Part shown: piece after piece, positions 53,984 to 61,710 of the stretch
Position numbering within the stretch: the first letter of the stretch is position 1
How the letters are laid out: every line of letters begins with the position of its first letter
Made by a program: the position numbers and the translations under genes
Notes under the pieces: model-generated
Told to the model about the DNA's origin: nothing
The model's input: the letters and a program-made list of their open reading frames with translations, nothing else
The model's database searches: none
NCBI GenBank assembly: GCA_010093815.1
Contig: ML996566.1
Length of the DNA stretch: 64,000 bases
Reading direction: 5' to 3' (one strand)
Source: Pseudovirgaria hyperparasitica
Taxonomy: Eukaryota

Positions 53984-55644
53984 GTCTTTGGATAGCCTAT
54001 CATTCCACAGTAAAAGCTACTGCTGGTTGTATGTACAGGACCGAATTCTTCGAGAACAACACGTGTTTTCAGAGGGAGGCACACTATCTTAAAGGACGAC
54101 CAAGACCATAAAAAGTAGGGTGACGGCAATCAAGCGACTACGTCACAGGAGACTATTTAGCCTGTCAAAGTCTAAGTCGGCTTTGACATCTGTCGGCAAA
54201 ACGGTCGGATGGCTCACAGAGAAATCTGATAGAATGTACCAGGTCATGCATGCCAACCGATCTGCCGCTTGTGAGGATGGCCCTAGTCATGCAAGATAGA
54301 AGGACTCCGGACCGGACTGGAGGAAAAGTGATAGCCCCGTCGAATGGGAATTATTGGCGCAGCTCAACTATATGCATTAAGTCTCTCTTGTCCGGTGGTG
54401 GCGTGTGAGTCTGCATGCCACACGTGTGAGGACGTCGGCCTTGACCATAAAATCTACCAACATGGTGGGCTGACATCAGACCCCAGATGATATCATCGCG
54501 AGTGTCAGTATACTCAGACAAGACCCGCCCATGTTATCTTTTCTTAGTAACGATATGGATAGAATGATGCGATAATAGACCCTGGAGCCGACGACAAGGT
54601 TTCCATGTCATACAAATCCGGGTCGCGCTGGAGTCCGCTCCGTGTGTGCCATCGTCCAAGTCCAGTTAACCAAGGATGAACGTAACAGTACCACACCGGC
54701 CCGATACCGAAGGACGAAAGAGATTAGACTGGTGCGTGTGGTGAGGCTGGACCGGGCGTCATGCTGTGGGTTATTGTGTTACCAACATTGAGAACCTCAT
54801 TTGATGAGGGACGTTCGATGGTTTGGGCGTCAGATTCTTGGATGGGTCCACACGTACCTGTCAAACGCTGAATGTCAAGCGATCATATGCAGGGAGTAGC
54901 CATTATCGACATCTAGATCCGAGGGTCGTCAGGCACTGTCAACGCCAGCTAGGTTAGTAGACAGGCATTGCTTGTGTTTGCTCAGGCACACAAATTCTCG
55001 AGATGTTGGAAAGTCTGAAGATTGATTTCGTTATTGATGCAGATATAAGTGAGCACGGCGGAAGAGGTCCAGTGTATGAGGTTGAATGGTTCACTTCGGT
55101 GTTGTCAAAGCGGTGTCTTGTAGATTGGAGTGGTATTGAAGAAAGGATGTCGAGGTGGAAGAGCATTGAATTACGACGCTAAGCCTATCAAGTACTAGAT
55201 CTTGATCCATCTCATACCCGTGCTGATCCATCTTGATCTTATCCTCACCCTCATACTTCTCTCCTGGTCACAACCCAAACACCACATTTCTGTGATCGCG
55301 TTCATGCAGACATGTTTGTCATAGTCCATCGGTTTAGTTAAGCGTACAGGAAAATACCAACAGGAGGATGATCTGTTGACACGAACAGCACAATATCTAA
55401 TACACTATATGCAAACTCTCATATCAAATCTAAACAGCTTCGATCCCCGATCACGACGAAAGGAATCAAAGATCTCGGGAGACAACACTTTCTATCAGGC
55501 CATATCCCCCTTGTCTGGACTGACACCATGTACCGCGATACGCCATATTAATGCTAACCCGGGAACGCCTTTGCCCAGCAGCTCTAACCTATACTAGCGT
55601 CCATCATTCGATCATTCGACCGCAGATCCTTGATCAAAAAGTCT

Positions 55645-57826
55645 TCACTTGCTAAACATATCCACCTCGTACCAGCTATCGCCATTAGGACACTGAACAC
55701 TGTTCTCCTTCAATCCCAACACCTTCTCGATTGTTGCTTCGCCGCATCTTTTCGAAATCGTCAAGGCAAATTGCCAATAGGACCAGTTATCGGCTGCGCT
55801 GCCGTCCTTGAATTTGTAGGGGTTGCTCTGGTCTTCGTTTTCAAATTGCCACTTGTCTGTTCCGGATGCTTTCTCGCATTTGTCCAGCTCACTCTTTAGC
55901 TTCTTGCCCCACTGGTCGCCCTGCTCGTATGCCGAAAGCTTCAGGTTGAAATTATACTGCCAAGCACCGCCATCGGAGCGCCGACAAGCGAGGTGGAGAT
56001 ATCCCAAGTGCTGGTTATCGGCAGGGAAGCCATCATGCTTGGAACCGCCAGGACCTTCAGTGTTGATGTCACGGACGCCGATTTGGTAAAATTCGTAATT
56101 GGCTTCTGTTTGCAGCCTGCGCGAATGCATTAGTCGGTGTCATGCTCCTGAACAAACGAAAGAGAAAACTTACCACGCCGATTCCTTTGTCTTCCCGTGT
56201 TGAGTCAGGAGCTGCTCAGTGGCCTGGTAGCAATTGCTACCGTCTTGGGTCGCGTAAAGGTAGAGCTCCTTATCATTAGAGATCTTGACTGAATAGGCGC
56301 ACCCTTCGTCTCCTACTCGAGTAGCTCGGACGAACTGCGACGGAACATCCGCAATAGCACTGGCATCGCAGATGTTCTGACAAGTCTTGTCTCGGAGCCG
56401 ATAGTACATATCAGTAATGTCATGCTGTTTGCCGTCGCCTAAGATCCAGTACTTGGGAAAGTTGGCGCTCAGCTCCCCTTGAGTACCAATCGCAGGATTT
56501 GATGGCAAGGGTGGCTTGATGGTACATGTACCTGCAGACAAGTCGACAATGTCAGCTCCCTGACCGATGTTCAACTGCTTCGCCCGAGTCTGTGCCATGT
56601 GGAAGAATATCTTGCTGGCTATAATAGCATGGCCCTTCTTCAGCGGATGGAACACACGCGCCCAGTTGTCTGGAATCGGGAGCGAAATGAGCGATTGTGG
56701 CTTAGGATCAGAGTCCGACATATTGGCTTTGATTGTGTCCTGGCCTTCCTTGATCAAACCTTGGACTTGAGCTTCGAAAGAGCCCTCGGGGAACCCATCC
56801 TCGTTCTGGCGCTTCTTCTTACTGCTCTCTGTGGTCCCGTCCTGGTACACGTCAGCCAAGCTGAGAGGCACTGAGAGGATGAATGGAGACTTACCAGATA
56901 GAACATTAGTTGATCACGGTTTGGCTGCGGCTCCTGTACTCCAGGCATGCAATATCGGCCCTCAAACGTTCCAAAAGCACTATCCCACTCAACTACCACG
57001 AATTGAGACCCAGCACGCTTGACAGCCTGTCGTATCTGTTCGTTGACCAGGTCGACTAGCTCATTCATGGCCTTTCTGCGGTCTACCGTAAGATACTGCC
57101 AATTCAGCCAGTTCACGGGGAATGTGAACCAATGCCAGGACACTTTGTCGCAATCGTTTGAGGTCTCATCGAAAAAGCGACCATAAGAAGTGACATAGAC
57201 AGTGCCTTGCCCAACTTTACCTTTAAGCTTGCCATAAAGAGAGTCAAGGTTTTTCGGCAGAGTGTTCTGGATGAGGTCCTTTGAATTGGCAATTGTCTTT
57301 TCACATCCGATCTTAGGATTCCAGGTGTAGACACACTCGTTCAGCAAGTCTACGAGGCCGACATCGTTGCCACCGGACGACACAGTAATCATGTCATATC
57401 CGCTAGACAACTGCGCGACTTGTTTCTCAACATCTGGACTCTTGGCACCCGAGCAAGCCAAGAACTCGAATGTTTGCGTGCCGCTCATACGTGGCGACGA
57501 ATTGAGCAGATTAGCATAAGAGCTATCGTATCGTGAGCACGAGTAGTCGATTCTGTTTCCTGCGCCAATTCCTGCCTATAGACTTCATTAGTGCAAGGTC
57601 CAGCGACGAGGGCTTAAAACTACCGAATACTTACAGCATAGGAATCCCCAACTGCGGCCCATTTCTTGATCCAGGATTGCTCATTTGCATTCTGCTGGGT
57701 TTGTCGGCGCTGAAGACCGAATATGTTTCTTGGCAAAGAGATTCCCGCTGCGGCTGGGGCTGCAAGAGTCTCTGGGATTGCGAGCAATAGCAAGAAAGCT
57801 TGCAGGGTGGACGAAGACCACTGCAT
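55645..57826 (-). CDS. Secreted SGNH/GDSL hydrolase (SEST-like) with long Cys-containing C-terminal extension
   Basis: Signal peptide MQWSSSTLQAFLLLLAIPETLA; blocks GDSYA|AG, ACSGA, SGGNDVG, VFHP. Four exons join in frame (introns 57634-57576, ~56894-56843, ~56173-56117). Confidence 0.85.
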
Positions 57827-58405
57827 CGTAACAAGGAGAAGATAAGTGAATGAAGATTAGAGTAAAGAAACAATGGTTTTGGTGGTTGGATTGGTGCTTG
57901 AGAGTGGTGATCTTGTCGGCGTGCAAAGGAACTCCACCATTTATACATATTGTAAGTTGACTCTGGTAAACAAGGCAATCTCTATTTCGAGAGTCGATAA
58001 AGCCCAGATACGAGATCTCACCTCATAAACACAAGGCTGAAACTGATGGTACCTGAGAGCCATGATGAATAATCAAGCCACATCCCGGAACAAACGCTCT
58101 GATTGGCTACCGACCATCTATATCGGGGTCGTGGAGGCTGTGGACATGCTTGTATCACGCTTATGCATCCGCGCACTGGACAAGGCAACATTTTTCTAGA
58201 AGCCCTGCTAATTTAGTACCTGTCAGCTCAAAATGGAATTCAGCTACGGAAGAATTTGATAAATTCAAAGAGAATAAAGCTTCGTAGGTAGTCCCTTTCG
58301 TTCAACAAGTCACTCGCTCTTCTCTAGATTTCCAAGTCTTTCTCGTCTCTCTGCCTCAAGCTTTGTATTTCCTCCTTTCTATCTTTCCTTCATATCACCG
58401 CCACC
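57827..58405. promoter_or_regulatory. Shared divergent promoter region of the SGNH hydrolase and the deaminase-like secreted protein
   Basis: Divergent ATGs about 580 bp apart; minus-strand TATAAA near 57945; pyrimidine-rich tract upstream of 58406. Confidence 0.5.
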
Positions 58406-59167
58406 ATGCTCCATCGCCTCTTCTACATCCTCCCTCTTCTCTCGACCCTCACATCCGCCCAACGCTGGGGGGTCCGAGAAGACTCCCCTCCAGCCGAGAC
58501 CCACGAGAACGTACAAATCACCCATTACTCCTCGGCCGTCACAAAGATCATCACCACCAACCCAGCGCAGGACCTCGACTTCACAAACGCCCAGGCCCTC
58601 ACCGATGGTATGCTCTACCAAATCGCGCTCGAGGCCGCCGCCGAAAAAGACGACCTGGCCGAGGCCGCCGGCACCATCGACAGCGTCCCGCCCGCCCTGA
58701 CAGTCATGCAAGCCGGCTCCGAGATCTACATCTCCTCGTCCATCAAGTTCAATGCGCCCGGCTTCATCACCACCTTCCCCTCGTCGCCCGCCAGCCTCGT
58801 TCTCGCACAGTGCTGCGCACTAGGCCGCTCGTTTGGCCTCGACGATCGCTCGAGCTCGAACCATCGCAGCGAGGGCAACTGTGGCGAGCCCGGTGCCGTG
58901 CACATGTGGTTCAAGCAGCACAACACGAACGACTTTGCGAGGTTCCCGCAGAACGGGCGCATTGTGACCGTTGGGTGGTATAATGGCGAGTACTCGATCT
59001 GGAACCCGTGTGGAAATAATGATGATCCTACGACGGGAAATGCGAGGGCTGATTGGGGATGTACGCGGTTTATACAGGAGTTTGGTCTGACGGCGCTGCC
59101 TGCGGGGACGCAGGCGCAGCAGGTGCCGGACGATTGGTATATTCAGACTAATCAGATCTGCCTATAG
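58406..59167 (+). CDS. Small secreted protein with putative Zn-dependent deaminase-like motif
   Basis: 253-aa intronless ORF with strong GC3 bias; signal peptide MLHRLFYILPLLSTLTSA; motifs HRSEGNCGE, RIVTVG, PCG..(x16)..C. Confidence 0.8.
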   Translation: MLHRLFYILPLLSTLTSAQRWGVREDSPPAETHENVQITHYSSAVTKIITTNPAQDLDFTNAQALTDGMLYQIALEAAAEKDDLAEAAGTIDSVPPALTVMQAGSEIYISSSIKFNAPGFITTFPSSPASLVLAQCCALGRSFGLDDRSSSNHRSEGNCGEPGAVHMWFKQHNTNDFARFPQNGRIVTVGWYNGEYSIWNPCGNNDDPTTGNARADWGCTRFIQEFGLTALPAGTQAQQVPDDWYIQTNQICL

Positions 59168-59437
59168 ACGATGGTGTGGGTGTTGGATAGTGTTTTGAAG
59201 TGTTGGGTGTTGTGTGTGTAATATTTCATAACGTTGAGTCTTGGGTATGACGGGAGGGCAGGGGGAGTTCTTGCTTTACATAGAAGGGGTTAGTAATATT
59301 CTTACTCTCGAGATTATCTACTGTTACTGTCTCGGCACTCTGTTTGCTAAGTGCTACTGTATGTGATATGCCACATAGAAGTGCTGCAATAGCAGTCAAC
59401 ACAGCACTCAGTCCCCATCTGACCCCTGACCAACCCC

Positions 59438-60718
59438 CTACCACACCAAGACCCCCTTGATAACCTCCCCCTTCTCCATCGCCTCCCTCGCCGCCGCAAA
59501 CTCCCCAACCGGATAATTCCGCAACAGTTTCTCCACCGGCAGGAACCCCTCCTTACACCACCGCACCAGCTCCGGCAACGCCTCCACCGGATCTCGATCC
59601 CCCTCAATCACACCCACAAGCCGCCGCCCATGTACCATATGCGCCAGCGTATCCAACTCCAGCCTCGCCCCAACGGGCTTGACACCCACCTGCAGCACCG
59701 TCCCATTATTCGCCACGGCCTCCAGACACGCGCCCAGCACCACCACACTCGGACTCGTATCCAGCACATGCGTCGCACCCCGCCCACCCGGCGTAAGCGC
59801 CCGAATCGCACCCTGCAAATCCGTCCCGCGCGCCTCCAGTTCCGCAGGCGCCGAATGTAGGCCATGTGTTGCGCCTAGCGTACGTGCCAGCTCGACGCGC
59901 GCCGGCACCAGATCTGCCGCGATGATGGTCTGGACACCTAGATGTTTGGCGGCGCAGATGGCGGCTAGACCGACGCCGCCCAGGCCGACGACGGCGAGCA
60001 CATCGGACGGGGTGCAGCGGGCAACGTGTGTGATTGCGCCGGCGCCGGTCATGATGCCGCAGCCCAGGGGCGCGTAGGCGATGAGGTCGTGGGCGTTGCG
60101 GACGAGGGCGGAGACGTTTGCGGCGCAGGTGGCTTTGACGGGGGTGGGCGAGGCGAAGGAGGATTGGCCGAAGTAGCCGCCGCCGATGACGCGGGAGGGG
60201 TCGGCGGCGAGGACGAAGTTTGGGTCGTTGGCGTGGAGGGTTACGGCGGCGTGGGAGGTGCAGTAGGCTGGGTGGCCGGTGGTGCAGTAGTGGCAAGACT
60301 GGCAGGAGGCGGCGGAGAGGATGACGAGGTCGCCTGGCTTGAAGTTCTTTTCGAGAGACTTGGAGCCGAGGCGGAGGATACGGCCGGCGCCTGGGTGAGG
60401 GTGTTAGAGATGTTTGAGATGGTGTTGAGGGGGCAAGGGGAGGAGGGGAAGTCGGGTTGGATATCTTCACTTCGGAAGGACAGGATTTCGTTGTAACGGG
60501 GATGTTGAAGGGGGAACGAGCACTGACTGACCTTCATGGCCCAGTACGCGCGGATATATGCCTCCATAACCTGAGATGTCGGTATGGCAGACGCCGGTGG
60601 CGATCATTTCGACCATGAATTCATCTTCATGGGGCTCACGAGTGAGGAGGTCTTCGAACTTCCAGTCATGCTCGGAGTAGGCAACAATGCCCTTGCACGG
60701 GACGGTATATTGGGACAT
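59438..60718 (-). CDS. Zn-dependent MDR alcohol dehydrogenase (aryl/benzyl-alcohol DH-like)
   Basis: GVCHTD, LGHEG (across intron 60531-60391), structural Zn SCQSCHYCTTGHPAYC, FGQSSFA, PLGCGIMTGAG, Rossmann GLGGVG. Confidence 0.92.
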
Positions 60719-61710
60719 GGGATGATGCTGTTGTCTGGAACGTGTCTGGCACGAAGGTTTGGGTTGCGCGGGTGTGCATGATGGAAGGTGAGTTATGATG
60801 TCGGCGCAGCGGCATCAATTGAAGATCCTCGGAAAGAGGTGGTGTTAGTGCGAGGGGTCGGAGGGTGATGTCAAAGGCTGGGACTGGCTGAGGATACAGA
60901 GCTGTCGCGCGAGGAGGGGGATGATGCCTTGCGGTGGCGCTAGATAGAAGTTTAGAGGTAGATGTTCCGGATCCAAGAAGTCTACTATTGACATGCACGA
61001 GCATTAGAAGCCATCTTGATAGTGTGTTCTGTGACCTCCTGTATCTCAGTATCTGTCGTTGTCAAGCTCTGGGAGCTGTCAAGAAAGGGCTGATTGCATG
61101 TTGAAGCCGCCCGGCAAGAGAACATGGTAGAGCGGAGCCACAGTCCATAAGGAGAGCCGTGTATAGATATAGCAAATTGGTGTTGTATAATGCTTTCCAC
61201 CTTTGCATCAGCACAGCCGGAGGACACCAGGGGTTCAGGCCTGAGGCGCCGAGTGACGTTGAAGGCCCGAAGCAGCTAGACCAGAAGTCAGACAGTCAGG
61301 CGGCAAGGCAGGAAGTGGGGCCAAGCTAGCTCTGTTGACTCCACAACTTCGACAGCTCCAATCTACAGCTCTCGCGTTCCTGGAGCTGCAGCTGTCAAAA
61401 CTTTAATATTCTCTCTCTCGGTCCACTTCAAGTCTACAAACGCCCAAATCGTGTGTACGACGTCTCTGTCAAGCTGGTTTTCTCTCTCTCTCTCGTGAGC
61501 TTCTCCGATTGAGCCCCTAGGTAAGGGTGTTCTTTGACCTGCGCGATCGCTTTGAGCTCCATCATGGCCTTCAACCAGCCCTCGGGCTGCCTTGAAGCTG
61601 AGAAGGTTGCTCATTCCCTCCCTCGATGTTCAGCGTCGCTAACGCTATCCAGCTCCGTCCTGTGTGCTTGACTGAGAGTATATCTTGAGTGTGACCTCGT
61701 CGTAGCCATC

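What the first reader, a model, noticed from the sequence alone, without database searches (positions are those of the whole stretch)
58406..59167. Secreted fungal protein with a nucleic-acid-deaminase-like catalytic signature
Seen: cleavable signal peptide; H-R-S-E-G-N-C-G-E (58862-58888) followed by a helix; a beta-strand RIVTVG; then P-C (59006-59011) and a second Cys in WGC (59060-59062) after a 16-residue insert. Established: the CDA/deaminase superfamily uses [H/C]xE plus PCxxC for Zn binding and catalysis, and CxE variants occur in bacterial polymorphic-toxin deaminases such as the YwqJ-like clade. Inference: an exported deaminase-fold toxin or effector acting on nucleic acids or nucleotides of competitor or host cells. 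ER targeting would explain the lack of an adjacent immunity gene. It would also be a candidate novel base-editing enzyme.
Basis: partly seen in the sequence, partly recalled or inferred. Interest (0 to 1): 0.85.

Follow-up and report, generated by a model that had tools for sequence, protein, structure and literature searches.

The report
Secreted fungal YwqJ-like deaminase
This fungal gene encodes a small exported enzyme that is a distant relative of a bacterial DNA-deaminating toxin and belongs to an unnamed fungal family, so it may be a fungal weapon or a detoxifying enzyme, but what it acts on is untested.

Summary
ORF 58406-59167 (+) is an intron-less, transcribed gene (spliced RNA-type contigs) for a 253-aa protein with a signal-peptide-like N-terminus, and every motif sits at the stated coordinates.

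The protein matches no Pfam family and no PDB sequence. It has 98 relatives. The 10 I looked up are either unnamed or called "hypothetical"/"uncharacterized" in Aspergillus, Metarhizium and Saccharata.

- **Conservation:** in 97 aligned relatives C159 and E161 are invariant. H153 is kept in 93/97, C202 in 94/96 and C219 in 69/73.
- **Fold:** an AlphaFold2 model (pLDDT 86.3) has the deaminase fold. 23 of the top 25 structural matches are zinc deaminases, best Z 8.1.
- **Closest family:** profile-profile comparison ties the family to bacterial YwqJ toxin deaminases (92%, E 6.6e-7). CDA-type, DddA-like, reversed and shuffled profiles score 0.6% or less.

Fold, catalytic signature and YwqJ kinship are supported. 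The toxin role and a nucleic-acid substrate are not tested. The mature protein is acidic (pI 4.58), which weakens that reading. The two C-terminal zinc cysteines lie 7-53 residues apart instead of 2. I could not measure zinc-site geometry.

The parts
58227..59334 (+). Transcribed region (outer limits of two RNA-type contigs), unspliced
   Evidence: X3 contig covers 58254-59334 and X4 contig 58227-59218 with no joints. The same runs skip introns in both neighbouring genes; DNA run X1 does not.
58406..59167 (+). Coding sequence, 253 aa plus stop (59165-59167), protein P0001
   Evidence: tblastn with 93 family members hits only this place in the window.
58406..58462 (+). Signal-peptide-like N-terminus (residues 1-19, MLHR + hydrophobic core + TSA|QR)
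   Evidence: Read from the sequence. Hydropathy heuristic: family 57 of 77, control 3 of 96, P0001 1.81 against a cut of 2.0. No dedicated predictor was available.
58463..58591 (+). N-terminal extension of the mature protein (residues 20-62), with strands 24-26 and 39-49 and the family motif G-x-L/V right after the predicted cleavage site
   Evidence: Model; alignment.
58604..58666 (+). Long helix 1 of the deaminase core (residues 67-87)
   Evidence: An extended N-terminal helix is also reported for B. subtilis YwqJ (preprint section 5).
58694..58738 (+). Strands 1 and 2 (residues 97-103 and 106-111), ending in the conserved SS(S) motif
   Evidence: S111 is 90/97 and S112 is 85/97.
58763..58828 (+). 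[quoted passage not shown]
   Evidence: C136 92/97. hhalign aligns this insert with the YwqJ insert. The preprint reports 'two additional central helices' in YwqJ.
58862..58888 (+). H153-R-S-E-G-N-C159-G-E161: first active-site motif (Gx[CH]xE type), with predicted Zn ligand C159 and catalytic E161
   Evidence: H153 93/97, C159 97/97, E161 97/97. Aligned to GRCAE of YwqJ.
58883..58921 (+). Helix 2 (residues 160-172)
58955..58999 (+). Strand 3 (184-192, RIVTVG, R185 conserved) and a short extra strand (195-198) before PC
   Evidence: R185 is 88/97. [quoted passage not shown]
59006..59011 (+). P201-C202: first cysteine of the second zinc motif
   Evidence: C202 is 94 of 96 non-gap. Aligned to PC of the YwqJ PCxxC.
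59012..59053 (+). Variable loop that splits the zinc motif (residues 203-216), modelled with lower confidence
   Evidence: pLDDT about 66 for residues 201-220. Cys-to-Cys spacing in the family is 7-53, median 11, never 2.
59054..59080 (+). W217-G218-C219 and helix 3 (219-225): second cysteine of the zinc motif at the helix N-terminus
   Evidence: C219 is 69 of 73 non-gap. Aligned to the second Cys of the YwqJ PCxxC. Helix.
59087..59152 (+). Strands 4 (228-230) and 5 (245-249) with no helix between them (C-terminal hairpin type)
59159..59161 (+). C252, conserved C-terminal cysteine; possible disulfide partner of C136 (58811-58813)
   Evidence: C252 is 53 of 60 non-gap and C136 is 92/97. Of 71 sequences with 20 or more residues after helix 3, 47 have both. 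The pairing is inferred, not measured.

Best explanation
The gene encodes a secreted, zinc-dependent hydrolytic deaminase of about 25 kDa once the signal peptide is removed. It belongs to an unnamed family of filamentous ascomycetes that is a remote homologue of the bacterial YwqJ toxin deaminases.

Proposed mechanism:
- C159, C202 and C219 hold a zinc ion that activates a water molecule.
- E161 shuttles the proton.
- An exocyclic amino group of a cytosine-type base is replaced by oxygen.

The most likely substrate is cytosine in a polynucleotide (single-stranded DNA or RNA) of a competitor or host cell. Co-translational export would keep the enzyme away from the producer's own nucleic acids, so no immunity gene is needed.

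Shown here: transcription, an intron-less gene model, fold, conservation of the catalytic set, and kinship with YwqJ.

Inferred: secretion (from an N-terminal pattern, no predictor), zinc binding, catalysis, the substrate and the biological role.

The confidence of 0.45 is for the whole statement including a polynucleotide substrate. For 'an active, exported deaminase-fold enzyme related to YwqJ' alone I would say about 0.8.
For: Gene and transcript:
- An unspliced RNA-type contig covers the ORF in two runs, which splice the neighbouring genes.

Family:
- 99 proteins at E of 0.001 or better, including the query.
- C159 and E161 are 97/97, H153 93/97, C202 94/96, C219 69/73.

Fold:
- AlphaFold2 on 97 sequences gives pLDDT 86.3 and pTM 0.86. 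The order of elements is helix 1, strands 1-2, insert, helix 2 starting at CxE, strand 3, PC, helix 3 starting at C219, then a strand 4-5 hairpin.
- VIA-align against 48,161 chains: 23 of the top 25 rows are CDA-superfamily zinc deaminases. The best is 3oj6_A, blasticidin S deaminase, Z 8.1, rmsd 2.8 over 105 residues. A T6S cytidine deaminase toxin (9c63_A) scores Z 4.8.
- Atlas, by structure: a bacterial cluster that is 93% PF14431 YwqJ-deaminase gives TM 0.64/0.63 over 155 residues. By features, the three nearest named clusters are YwqJ-type at 0.82-0.83, which is a lead only.

Homology:
- hhalign of the fungal family against 14 actinobacterial PF14431 domains gives 92%, E 6.6e-7, 114 columns. 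It puts GxCGE on GRCAE, PC on PC, and C219 on the second Cys of PCxxC.
- PF00383 groups score 0.6% or less; reversed and five column-shuffled YwqJ profiles 0.2% or less. DddA-like scores 0.3%.

Export:
- 57 of 77 relatives with a full N-terminus carry a hydrophobic N-terminal stretch, against 3 of 96 controls.
- Three relatives (P0056, P0086, P0092) carry Lys- or Pro-rich charged C-terminal tails.
Against: - Mature P0001 is acidic (pI 4.58, net -13) and the family median pI is 6.4: 36 of 94 are below 6 and 23 of 94 above 8. By contrast 10 of 14 bacterial YwqJ domains have pI 9.7 or higher. A strongly acidic surface is unusual for an enzyme that grips nucleic acid.
- No translocation or receptor-binding domain is present, and the 99 hits include no large fused forms (longest 494 aa).
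- The preprint states that earlier screens of other YwqJ-family members found no ssDNA or dsDNA activity.
- The canonical PCxxC spacing is absent: spacing is 7-53 and never 2.
- Zinc-site geometry could not be measured.
- No member reaches the Pfam PF14431 model: 0 of 97 at E of 10 or better.
- The hhalign signal depends on profile make-up. It is 59% with the 4 divergent YwqJ sequences and 18% with the 10 close ones. With the 30 closest fungal sequences (A1) it is 83% against the full YwqJ profile and 3% against the 10 close ones.
- The best VIA Z of 8.1 is in the range the tool says models without a clear match often reach. The case rests on how consistent the list is, not on the score.
- P0001's own N-terminus misses my hydropathy cut (1.81 against 2.0).
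Confidence: 0.45

Rival explanations
1. It is a secreted deaminase that acts outside the cell on a small molecule. Candidates are a free base or nucleoside (salvage) or a cytosine-containing nucleoside antibiotic from competing microbes (detoxification, as blasticidin S deaminase does inside cells). On this reading it is a protective or nutritional enzyme, not a toxin.
For: - The best structural matches are enzymes of free nucleosides or nucleoside antibiotics: blasticidin S deaminase Z 8.1, and cytidine deaminases Z 7.0, 6.5 and 6.3.
- The protein is acidic like many secreted fungal enzymes (pI 4.58).
- It has no delivery domain.
- It lies head-to-head with another secreted-type hydrolase, a GDSL lipase whose start at 57826 (-) also has a signal-like N-terminus.
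- Earlier screens of YwqJ-family members found no DNA activity, according to the preprint.
Against: - Profile-profile comparison links the family to the YwqJ toxin clade and not to CDA/PF00383 enzymes (92% against 0.6% or less).
- The top structural scores are tied within about 1-2 Z units across many deaminase types, so they do not single out blasticidin S deaminase.
- The large inserts around the pocket and the wide divergence of the family (mean column identity 11% in A2) resemble toxin and effector clades more than housekeeping enzymes.
Confidence: 0.3
2. It is not released. The N-terminal hydrophobic stretch keeps it in the secretory pathway, vacuole or cell wall, or is not a signal peptide at all, and the enzyme serves the fungus's own metabolism or editing.
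For: - No signal-peptide predictor was run.
- P0001's hydrophobic core is modest (1.81 on my scale).
- 20 of 77 relatives with a full N-terminus fail the test.
- Fungal intracellular deaminases of toxin origin are known: the OTT_1508 and DYW clades (PMC3239186, passages read).
Against: - The N-terminus has the classic layout: basic start, a 12-13 residue hydrophobic core too short for a membrane anchor, and small residues at -3 and -1.
- The hydrophobic stretch varies in sequence but is positionally conserved just before the first conserved motif of the mature protein.
- The protein ends in ...QICL, with no C-terminal HDEL/KDEL-type signal or hydrophobic tail.
- Conserved extra cysteines C136 and C252 fit an extracellular protein.
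Confidence: 0.15
3. It is a deaminase-fold protein that has lost catalysis. The conserved cysteines form structural disulfides in the oxidising secretory pathway, and the protein acts by binding something.
For: - The canonical PCxxC is broken by a 7-53 residue loop.
- Zinc-thiolate sites are at risk in the ER.
- Geometry was not measured.
Against: - The glutamate of CxE has no structural role in known deaminases (recalled), yet it is invariant in 97 of 97, as is C159.
- hhalign puts all three cysteines on the zinc ligands of YwqJ.
- Inactive deaminase copies described in PMC3239186 Table 1 lack one of these residues.
Confidence: 0.07

Closest known systems
Bacterial YwqJ toxin deaminases (Pfam PF14431; prototype B. 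subtilis YwqJ, reported as a T7SSb-delivered ssDNA cytidine deaminase in bioRxiv 10.64898/2026.09.29.755374)
   Same: - Deaminase core of the C-terminal-hairpin type.
- Gx[CH]xE at the start of helix 2.
[quoted passage not shown]
- A long N-terminal helix.
- Profile-profile match of 92%, E 6.6e-7 over 114 columns.
- Atlas structural match of TM 0.64/0.63.
   Different: - No member reaches the Pfam model (0 of 97).
- It is a stand-alone protein with a eukaryotic signal peptide, not the C-terminal domain of an LXG/RHS-type polymorphic toxin.
- There is no immunity gene beside it.
- The zinc motif is split, PCx(7-53)C, where the 14 actinobacterial domains have PCxxC.
- The conserved histidine of the insert sits at a different aligned position.
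- It is acidic rather than basic.
- It has extra N-terminal strands and a conserved C136/C252 pair.
YwqJ-clade deaminases of basidiomycetes (e.g. Laccaria bicolor gi 170114820; Iyer et al. 2011, PMC3239186)
   Same: A fungal protein placed in the YwqJ clade. It shows that the clade had already been seen in fungi (passages read).
   Different: - That paper lists only basidiomycota for this clade.
- It says that most eukaryotic cognates are unlikely to act as secreted toxins.
- Of the 10 relatives I looked up, the 5 with an organism name are ascomycetes (Aspergillus, Metarhizium, Saccharata), and most relatives carry a signal-like N-terminus.
- I could not fetch the Laccaria sequence, so no direct comparison was made.
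[quoted passage not shown]
   Same: A eukaryotic zinc deaminase-fold protein with a signal peptide. This is a precedent that such enzymes can be exported.
   Different: SNADs belong to the AID/APOBEC clade, which Iyer 2011 places in the helix-4 division. The model here has no helix between strands 4 and 5. SNADs occur in animals, not fungi. No sequence relation was tested.
Blasticidin S deaminase and cytidine deaminases (CDA; Pfam PF00383)
   Same: Best structural matches: 3oj6_A Z 8.1 and 3b8f_A Z 7.0. They share the CxE type of first motif and the C-terminal hairpin topology.
   Different: - hhalign scores 0.6% or less against four PF00383 groups.
- Only 1 of 97 relatives (P0045) touches PF00383, below its cut-off (E 0.0011, 19.2 against 25 bits).
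- This protein is about 100 residues longer, through its inserts and N-terminal extension.
- CDA and blasticidin S deaminase are intracellular (recalled).
Secreted fungal ribotoxins such as alpha-sarcin and restrictocin (recalled, no call)
   Same: They work like the proposed toxin reading: a small exported fungal enzyme that damages nucleic acid of other cells, with the producer protected by export rather than by an immunity protein.
   Different: Unrelated fold and chemistry (RNase, not deaminase). Ribotoxins are strongly basic, whereas this protein is acidic.

Membership tests
CDA/deaminase superfamily (zinc-dependent nucleotide and nucleic-acid deaminases) | Three-layer alpha/beta/alpha deaminase fold with helix 2 and helix 3 packed on a five-stranded sheet | tested here: met
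   The model has pLDDT 86.3. 23 of the top 25 VIA-align rows are superfamily members, best Z 8.1, rmsd 2.8, 105 residues. Foldseek against PDB found nothing at E of 0.001 or better.
CDA/deaminase superfamily (zinc-dependent nucleotide and nucleic-acid deaminases) | [H/C]xE at the N-terminus of helix 2 (zinc ligand plus catalytic glutamate) | tested here: met
   C159-G-E161 lies directly before helix 160-172. Both residues are 97/97.
CDA/deaminase superfamily (zinc-dependent nucleotide and nucleic-acid deaminases) | Two further zinc-ligand cysteines at the N-terminus of helix 3 (PCxxC in most clades) | tested here: inconclusive
   Both cysteines are conserved (C202 94/96, C219 69/73), and hhalign places them on the two Cys of the YwqJ PCxxC. 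Their spacing is 7-53 residues and never 2. I could not measure whether they meet at one zinc site, because no model coordinates are available.
CDA/deaminase superfamily (zinc-dependent nucleotide and nucleic-acid deaminases) | Zinc binding and hydrolytic deamination | not testable with these tools
   Needs metal analysis and enzyme assays.
YwqJ-deaminase clade (Pfam PF14431; Iyer 2011 Table 1) | Match to the Pfam PF14431 model above its cut-off (25.9 bits) | tested here: not met
   0 of 97 family members match at E of 10 or better. P0001 has 0 families.
YwqJ-deaminase clade (Pfam PF14431; Iyer 2011 Table 1) | Significant profile-profile similarity to bona fide PF14431 domains, above other deaminase clades | tested here: met
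   92%, E 6.6e-7, 114 columns against 14 domains that each pass the Pfam cut-off. PF00383 groups score 0.6% or less, DddA-like 0.3%, reversed or shuffled 0.2% or less. With sub-profiles the value falls to 59% and 18%.
YwqJ-deaminase clade (Pfam PF14431; Iyer 2011 Table 1) | Gx[CH]xE in helix 2 | tested here: met
   Position 157 is G in 63/97 and A in 26/97. C159 and E161 are 97/97.
YwqJ-deaminase clade (Pfam PF14431; Iyer 2011 Table 1) | [quoted passage not shown] | tested here: inconclusive
   The insert is present (residues 112-158, two helices) and holds a conserved His (H153, 93/97). But hhalign puts the invariant YwqJ His (LHPLV) on the fungal S-P-V stretch near residue 126, not on H153.
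YwqJ-deaminase clade (Pfam PF14431; Iyer 2011 Table 1) | Insert between strand 3 and the second zinc motif | tested here: met
   An extra strand at 195-198 lies between strand 3 (184-192) and P201-C202. It is aligned with the YwqJ insert.
YwqJ-deaminase clade (Pfam PF14431; Iyer 2011 Table 1) | Polymorphic-toxin context: C-terminal toxin domain on a trafficking protein, with an adjacent immunity gene | tested here: not met
   It is a stand-alone 253-aa protein with a signal-like N-terminus. Its neighbours are a GDSL lipase and a Zn alcohol dehydrogenase. The longest of the 99 relatives is 494 aa.
Cytidine/blasticidin S deaminases (Pfam PF00383) | Match to PF00383 or profile similarity to its members | tested here: not met
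   1 of 97 members matches, below the cut-off (19.2 against 25 bits). hhalign scores 0.6% or less against TadA-, CDA-, RibD-type and other PF00383 groups.
AID/APOBEC-like secreted deaminases (SNADs) | Helix-4 division topology (a helix between strands 4 and 5) | tested here: not met
   The model has strands 228-230 and 245-249 with no helix between them. The division assignment of AID/APOBEC is taken from PMC3239186 and PMC3482391.

The most novel reading that the evidence does not exclude
A whole family of filamentous-ascomycete proteins are secreted polynucleotide deaminase toxins. This would be the first eukaryotic counterpart of the bacterial deaminase toxins that is truly exported as a weapon or effector, with the producer protected simply by co-translational export. 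Its zinc site would be built from a split PCx(7-53)C motif. Members would be compact new deaminase scaffolds, and some relatives carry basic tails that could aid uptake or nucleic-acid binding.
Probability: 0.35. Interest if true: 0.82.

Novelty: new variant of a known kind. Interest (0 to 1): 0.62.

Why it matters
Deaminase toxins are well known in bacteria. The 2011 survey of the fold judged that their eukaryotic descendants are mostly not secreted toxins (PMC3239186). Here is an unannotated family with no Pfam match; the relatives I looked up are unnamed or "hypothetical protein" in Aspergillus, Metarhizium and Saccharata. It keeps the full catalytic set, is tied specifically to the YwqJ toxin clade, and carries export signals.

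If it attacks nucleic acids, it adds a new class to the short list of fungal protein toxins and effectors, and gives small deaminases with an unusual zinc motif for enzymology. If it acts on small molecules, it is an extracellular nucleoside or antibiotic-modifying enzyme of a kind I did not find described for fungi in my searches. Either way a simple expression and assay experiment would settle it.

Tried and rejected
**Searches that found nothing**
- Pfam on P0001 at E of 10 or better: 0 families.
- PDB sequences with P0001 and with the A1 profile: nothing relevant; only SPT16 at E 0.44.
- The search for homologous proteins found only the query itself. With the profile it found the query plus 2 others. 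That index seems to reach few fungal relatives.
- The window's own genome is not held, so paralogues could only be sought inside the window: none.
- Earlier findings of this scan: nothing relevant.

**Structure attempts**
- Single-sequence AlphaFold2 was useless (pLDDT 33.9).
- Foldseek against PDB gave no match at E of 0.001 or better. Only the exhaustive VIA-align search showed the fold.

**Looking for bacterial relatives**
- The search for related loci with A1 failed because no conserved stretch was long enough.
- A back-translated HRxGGNCGEP pattern in prokaryote genomes gave 19 loci. None of them lies in a deaminase-like ORF; all share a conserved DNA element that merely reads as the motif in one frame. 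So no bacterial protein with this exact signature was found.
- Rfam on 5 of those 19 loci: nothing.

**Expression**
- No RNA holder is listed on record. I call X3 and X4 RNA-type only because their contigs skip GT..AG introns that DNA run X1 keeps.

**Literature**
- Papers holding YwqJ + deaminase + fungi + secreted: 5. I read passages of 2 of them.
- 'secreted deaminase' + fungal: 1 paper, on fish SNAD1.
- The fungal effector structure atlas PMC9816061 has 0 occurrences of 'deaminase' in its main text; its supplements were not looked at.
- One search was badly set (min_terms 1) and gave nothing useful.

**Not done or not followed up**
- C136-C252 disulfide: co-occurrence is only suggestive (47 both, 19 C136 only, 3 tail Cys only, 2 neither).
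- Complex prediction was not used; no binding claim is made.
- Weak PIR-repeat hits in 5 of 97 relatives (best E 0.0018) were not followed up.
Full report
**1. The observation**

The + strand ORF 58406-59167 encodes 253 residues.
- HRSEGNCGE is residues 153-161 (58862-58888).
- RIVTVG is residues 185-190.
- P201-C202 is 59006-59011.
- C219 of WGC is 59060-59062, with 16 residues between the two cysteines.

No intron is needed. Contigs of two runs (X3, X4) skip GT..AG introns at 56116-56172, 56841-56893, 57575-57633 and 60390-60530 in the two neighbouring genes, and a DNA run (X1) keeps them. So X3 and X4 behave as RNA assemblies. They cover 58254-59334 and 58227-59218 without a joint. The gene is therefore transcribed and the simple gene model is right. 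No run is on record as RNA; the RNA nature is my inference from the splicing.

**2. The N-terminus**

MLHR, a 12-13 residue hydrophobic core and TSA|QR have the layout of a cleavable signal peptide. No dedicated predictor was available. In a crude test (10-residue hydropathy mean of 2.0 or more, starting within the first 26 residues):
- 57 of 77 relatives with a complete N-terminus pass.
- 3 of 96 internal control segments pass.
- P0001 itself scores 1.81, just under my cut. A 9-residue window gives 2.09.

The hydrophobic stretch varies in sequence but always lies just before the first conserved motif of the mature protein (G-x-L/V). The protein ends in QICL, with no retention signal or hydrophobic tail.

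**3. The family**

- P0001 matches no Pfam family at E of 10 or better and no PDB sequence.
- An exhaustive HMMER search of 1.84 billion cluster representatives gave 99 proteins at E of 0.001 or better, including the query: 20 at 1e-10 or better and 3 at 1e-30 or better. The best relative is 40% identical. Lengths run from 132 to 494 aa.
The named ones are "hypothetical" or "uncharacterized" proteins of Aspergillus species, Metarhizium species and Saccharata proteae, apart from one 'Metalloprotease MEP1' label on a Metarhizium humberi cluster member.
- The Atlas lists its nearest clusters as Ascomycota.
- I aligned 97 of the 99. P0044 and P0097 were dropped because their best matched stretches did not cover the domain.

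| Residue | Conservation |
|---|---|
| C159 | 97/97 |
| E161 | 97/97 |
| H153 | 93/97 |
| C136 | 92/97 |
| R185 | 88/97 |
| C202 | 94 of 96 non-gap |
| C219 | 69 of 73 non-gap |
| C252 | 53 of 60 non-gap |

Twenty-four sequences have a gap at the C219 position; most of them end within about 30 residues after PC. These are either truncated gene models or real short forms. Where both cysteines are present they lie 7-53 residues apart (median 11), never 2 as in the canonical PCxxC.

**4. The fold**

- A single-sequence model was useless (pLDDT 33.9).
- With the 97-sequence alignment AlphaFold2 gave pLDDT 86.3 and pTM 0.86, with 171 residues at 90 or above.
- The order of elements is: helix 67-87; strands 97-103 and 106-111; an insert with helices 120-123 and 128-141; helix 160-172 beginning right after C159; strand 184-192; a short strand 195-198; P201-C202; a lower-confidence loop; helix 219-225 beginning at C219; then strands 228-230 and 245-249 with no helix between them. 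This is the deaminase core of the C-terminal-hairpin type described in PMC3239186 (passages).
- Foldseek against PDB found nothing.
- VIA-align against 48,161 representative chains put CDA-superfamily zinc deaminases in 23 of the top 25 rows. Examples are blasticidin S deaminase 3oj6_A (Z 8.1, rmsd 2.8, 105 residues), cytidine, guanine and dCMP deaminases, ADAT2/3, TadA and the T6S toxin 9c63_A. The other two rows were ATIC and SPD_0310.
- The tool warns that a best Z of 7-8 is common for models without a true match. The weight here lies in the uniformity of the list.
- The Atlas's own model of this protein independently gave TM 0.64/0.63 over 155 residues to a bacterial cluster that is 93% PF14431 YwqJ-deaminase. 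By language-model features, the three nearest named clusters were YwqJ-type (0.82-0.83, leads only).

**5. Which clade**

I collected 14 PF14431 domains from 12 of 401 sampled actinobacterial genomes. All pass the Pfam cut-off. I aligned them.

| Comparison (hhalign) | Probability |
|---|---|
| Fungal family (A2) vs YwqJ profile | 92%, E 6.6e-7, 114 columns |
| A2 vs four groups of PF00383 enzymes (same kind of genomes) | 0.6% or less |
| A2 vs reversed YwqJ profile and five column-shuffled ones | 0.2% or less |
| A2 vs two DddA-like domains | 0.3% |
| YwqJ profile vs CDA group | 73.7% |
| 30 closest fungal sequences (A1) vs full YwqJ profile | 83% |
| A2 vs the 4 divergent YwqJ sequences | 59% |
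| A2 vs the 10 close YwqJ sequences | 18% |
| A1 vs the 10 close YwqJ sequences | 3% |

- The main alignment runs from strand 1 to strand 4. It places GxCGE on GRCAE, PC on PC, and C219 on the second Cys of PCxxC.
- The YwqJ-to-CDA link is as expected for members of one superfamily.
- The signal is real but depends on profile diversity. The aligned region stays the same in most comparisons, the exception being A1 against the 10 close sequences (26 columns).
- No family member reaches the Pfam PF14431 model itself (0 of 97).
- One member, P0045, touches PF00383 below its cut-off, over the stretch that holds all three motifs.
- So the family is a remote relative of the YwqJ clade, not a member of the Pfam family as now defined.

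**6. What is known about that clade**

- Iyer et al. 2011 (PMC3239186, passages) define the YwqJ clade by Gx[CH]xE, an insert with a conserved His before helix 2, and an insert before the CxxC motif. They list it in many bacteria and in basidiomycota (Laccaria). They state that most eukaryotic cognates of toxin deaminases are unlikely to be secreted toxins.
- A 2026 preprint (10.64898/2026.09.29.755374; abstract and sections 5 and 7 read) reports that B. subtilis YwqJ is a T7SSb-delivered single-stranded-DNA cytidine deaminase. [quoted passage not shown] The preprint also says that earlier screens of other YwqJ-family members found no DNA activity.
- The fungal model shows the same extra helices and long first helix.
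- One difference: hhalign puts the invariant YwqJ histidine on a different position from the fungal H153.

**7. What it most likely does**

- Chemistry (inferred from homology): C159, C202 and C219 bind zinc, and E161 acts as the proton shuttle for hydrolytic deamination.
- Location (inferred): exported.
- Substrate: open.

For a polynucleotide substrate and a toxin or effector role:
- The kinship is specifically with a toxin clade whose prototype deaminates ssDNA.
- The inserts surround the pocket.
- The family is strongly divergent (mean column identity 11% in A2).
- There is no neighbouring immunity gene, which export would make unnecessary.
- Three relatives carry charged Lys- or Pro-rich C-terminal tails.

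Against it:
- The mature protein has pI 4.58 and net charge -13. The family median pI is 6.4, whereas 10 of 14 bacterial YwqJ domains have pI 9.7 or higher.
- There is no delivery domain.
- One long-tailed relative has an acidic tail.

The main rival is an extracellular deaminase of a free base, nucleoside or nucleoside antibiotic. That fits the acidity and the best structural matches, but not the profile-profile result.

My estimates:

| Reading | Probability |
|---|---|
| Active, exported, YwqJ-related deaminase | about 0.8 |
| Polynucleotide toxin or effector | about 0.45 |
| Small-molecule enzyme | about 0.3 |
| Not released | about 0.15 |
| Inactive binder | about 0.07 |

The last four are not all mutually exclusive.

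**8. Limits**

- C136 and C252 are conserved and may form a disulfide. Co-occurrence is only suggestive.
- The genome of the window is not held, so copy number and other paralogues are unknown. There is none elsewhere in the window.
- The supplements of the fungal effector structure atlas (PMC9816061) were not looked at. Its main text never mentions deaminase.

**9. Verdict**

It is a new variant of a known kind. It is an unannotated, signal-peptide-bearing ascomycete branch related to the YwqJ toxin deaminases, with a split second zinc motif. I did not find it described in the papers I could search.

Noticed in passing
window 55500-57997 (- strand): The gene that diverges head-to-head from the deaminase gene starts at 57826 (-), 580 bases from the deaminase start. 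It also opens with a signal-peptide-like N-terminus (MQWSSSTLQAFLLLLAIPETLAAP) and holds a GDSL-like lipase domain (E 2.8e-8). Its two downstream exons (56173-56840 and 55500-56115) match no Pfam family. RNA-type contigs define three introns: 56116-56172, 56841-56893 and 57575-57633.
   Followed up: partly
window 59434-61000 (- strand): A zinc-type alcohol dehydrogenase gene (ADH_zinc_N E 7.7e-21, ADH_N) lies downstream, convergent with the deaminase gene. It has one intron at 60390-60530, confirmed by RNA-type contigs.
   Followed up: partly
relatives P0032-P0093 (24 of 97 in alignment A2): About a quarter of the family representatives have a gap at the C219 position, most of them ending within about 30 residues after the PC motif. 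They therefore lack helix 3 and the third zinc cysteine. They may be gene models cut at an unrecognised intron in the variable loop, or real truncated forms such as Iyer 2011 notes for the bacterial YwqJ clade.
   Followed up: no
relatives P0056, P0086, P0092, P0075: Metarhizium-type and other relatives carry long low-complexity C-terminal tails after the deaminase domain. Three are rich in Lys and/or Pro (for example KPKPKPK and KKDDKKADKK runs) and one is strongly acidic (net -36). P0001 has no such tail.
   Followed up: partly
L001-L019 (prokaryote loci), around locus positions 880-970: Nineteen loci, most of them from Nocardioides-, Pimelobacter- and other Actinomycetota genomes, share a conserved core of about 40 bases (consensus). 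In one frame it happens to read GGNCGEP. It lies in no convincing ORF, and 5 of the 19 loci tested match no Rfam family. It may be an undescribed conserved non-coding element.
   Followed up: partly
alignment A2: Five of 97 family members give weak hits to the yeast PIR cell-wall repeat (best E 0.0018). If real, this would point to wall-linked forms of the enzyme.
   Followed up: no
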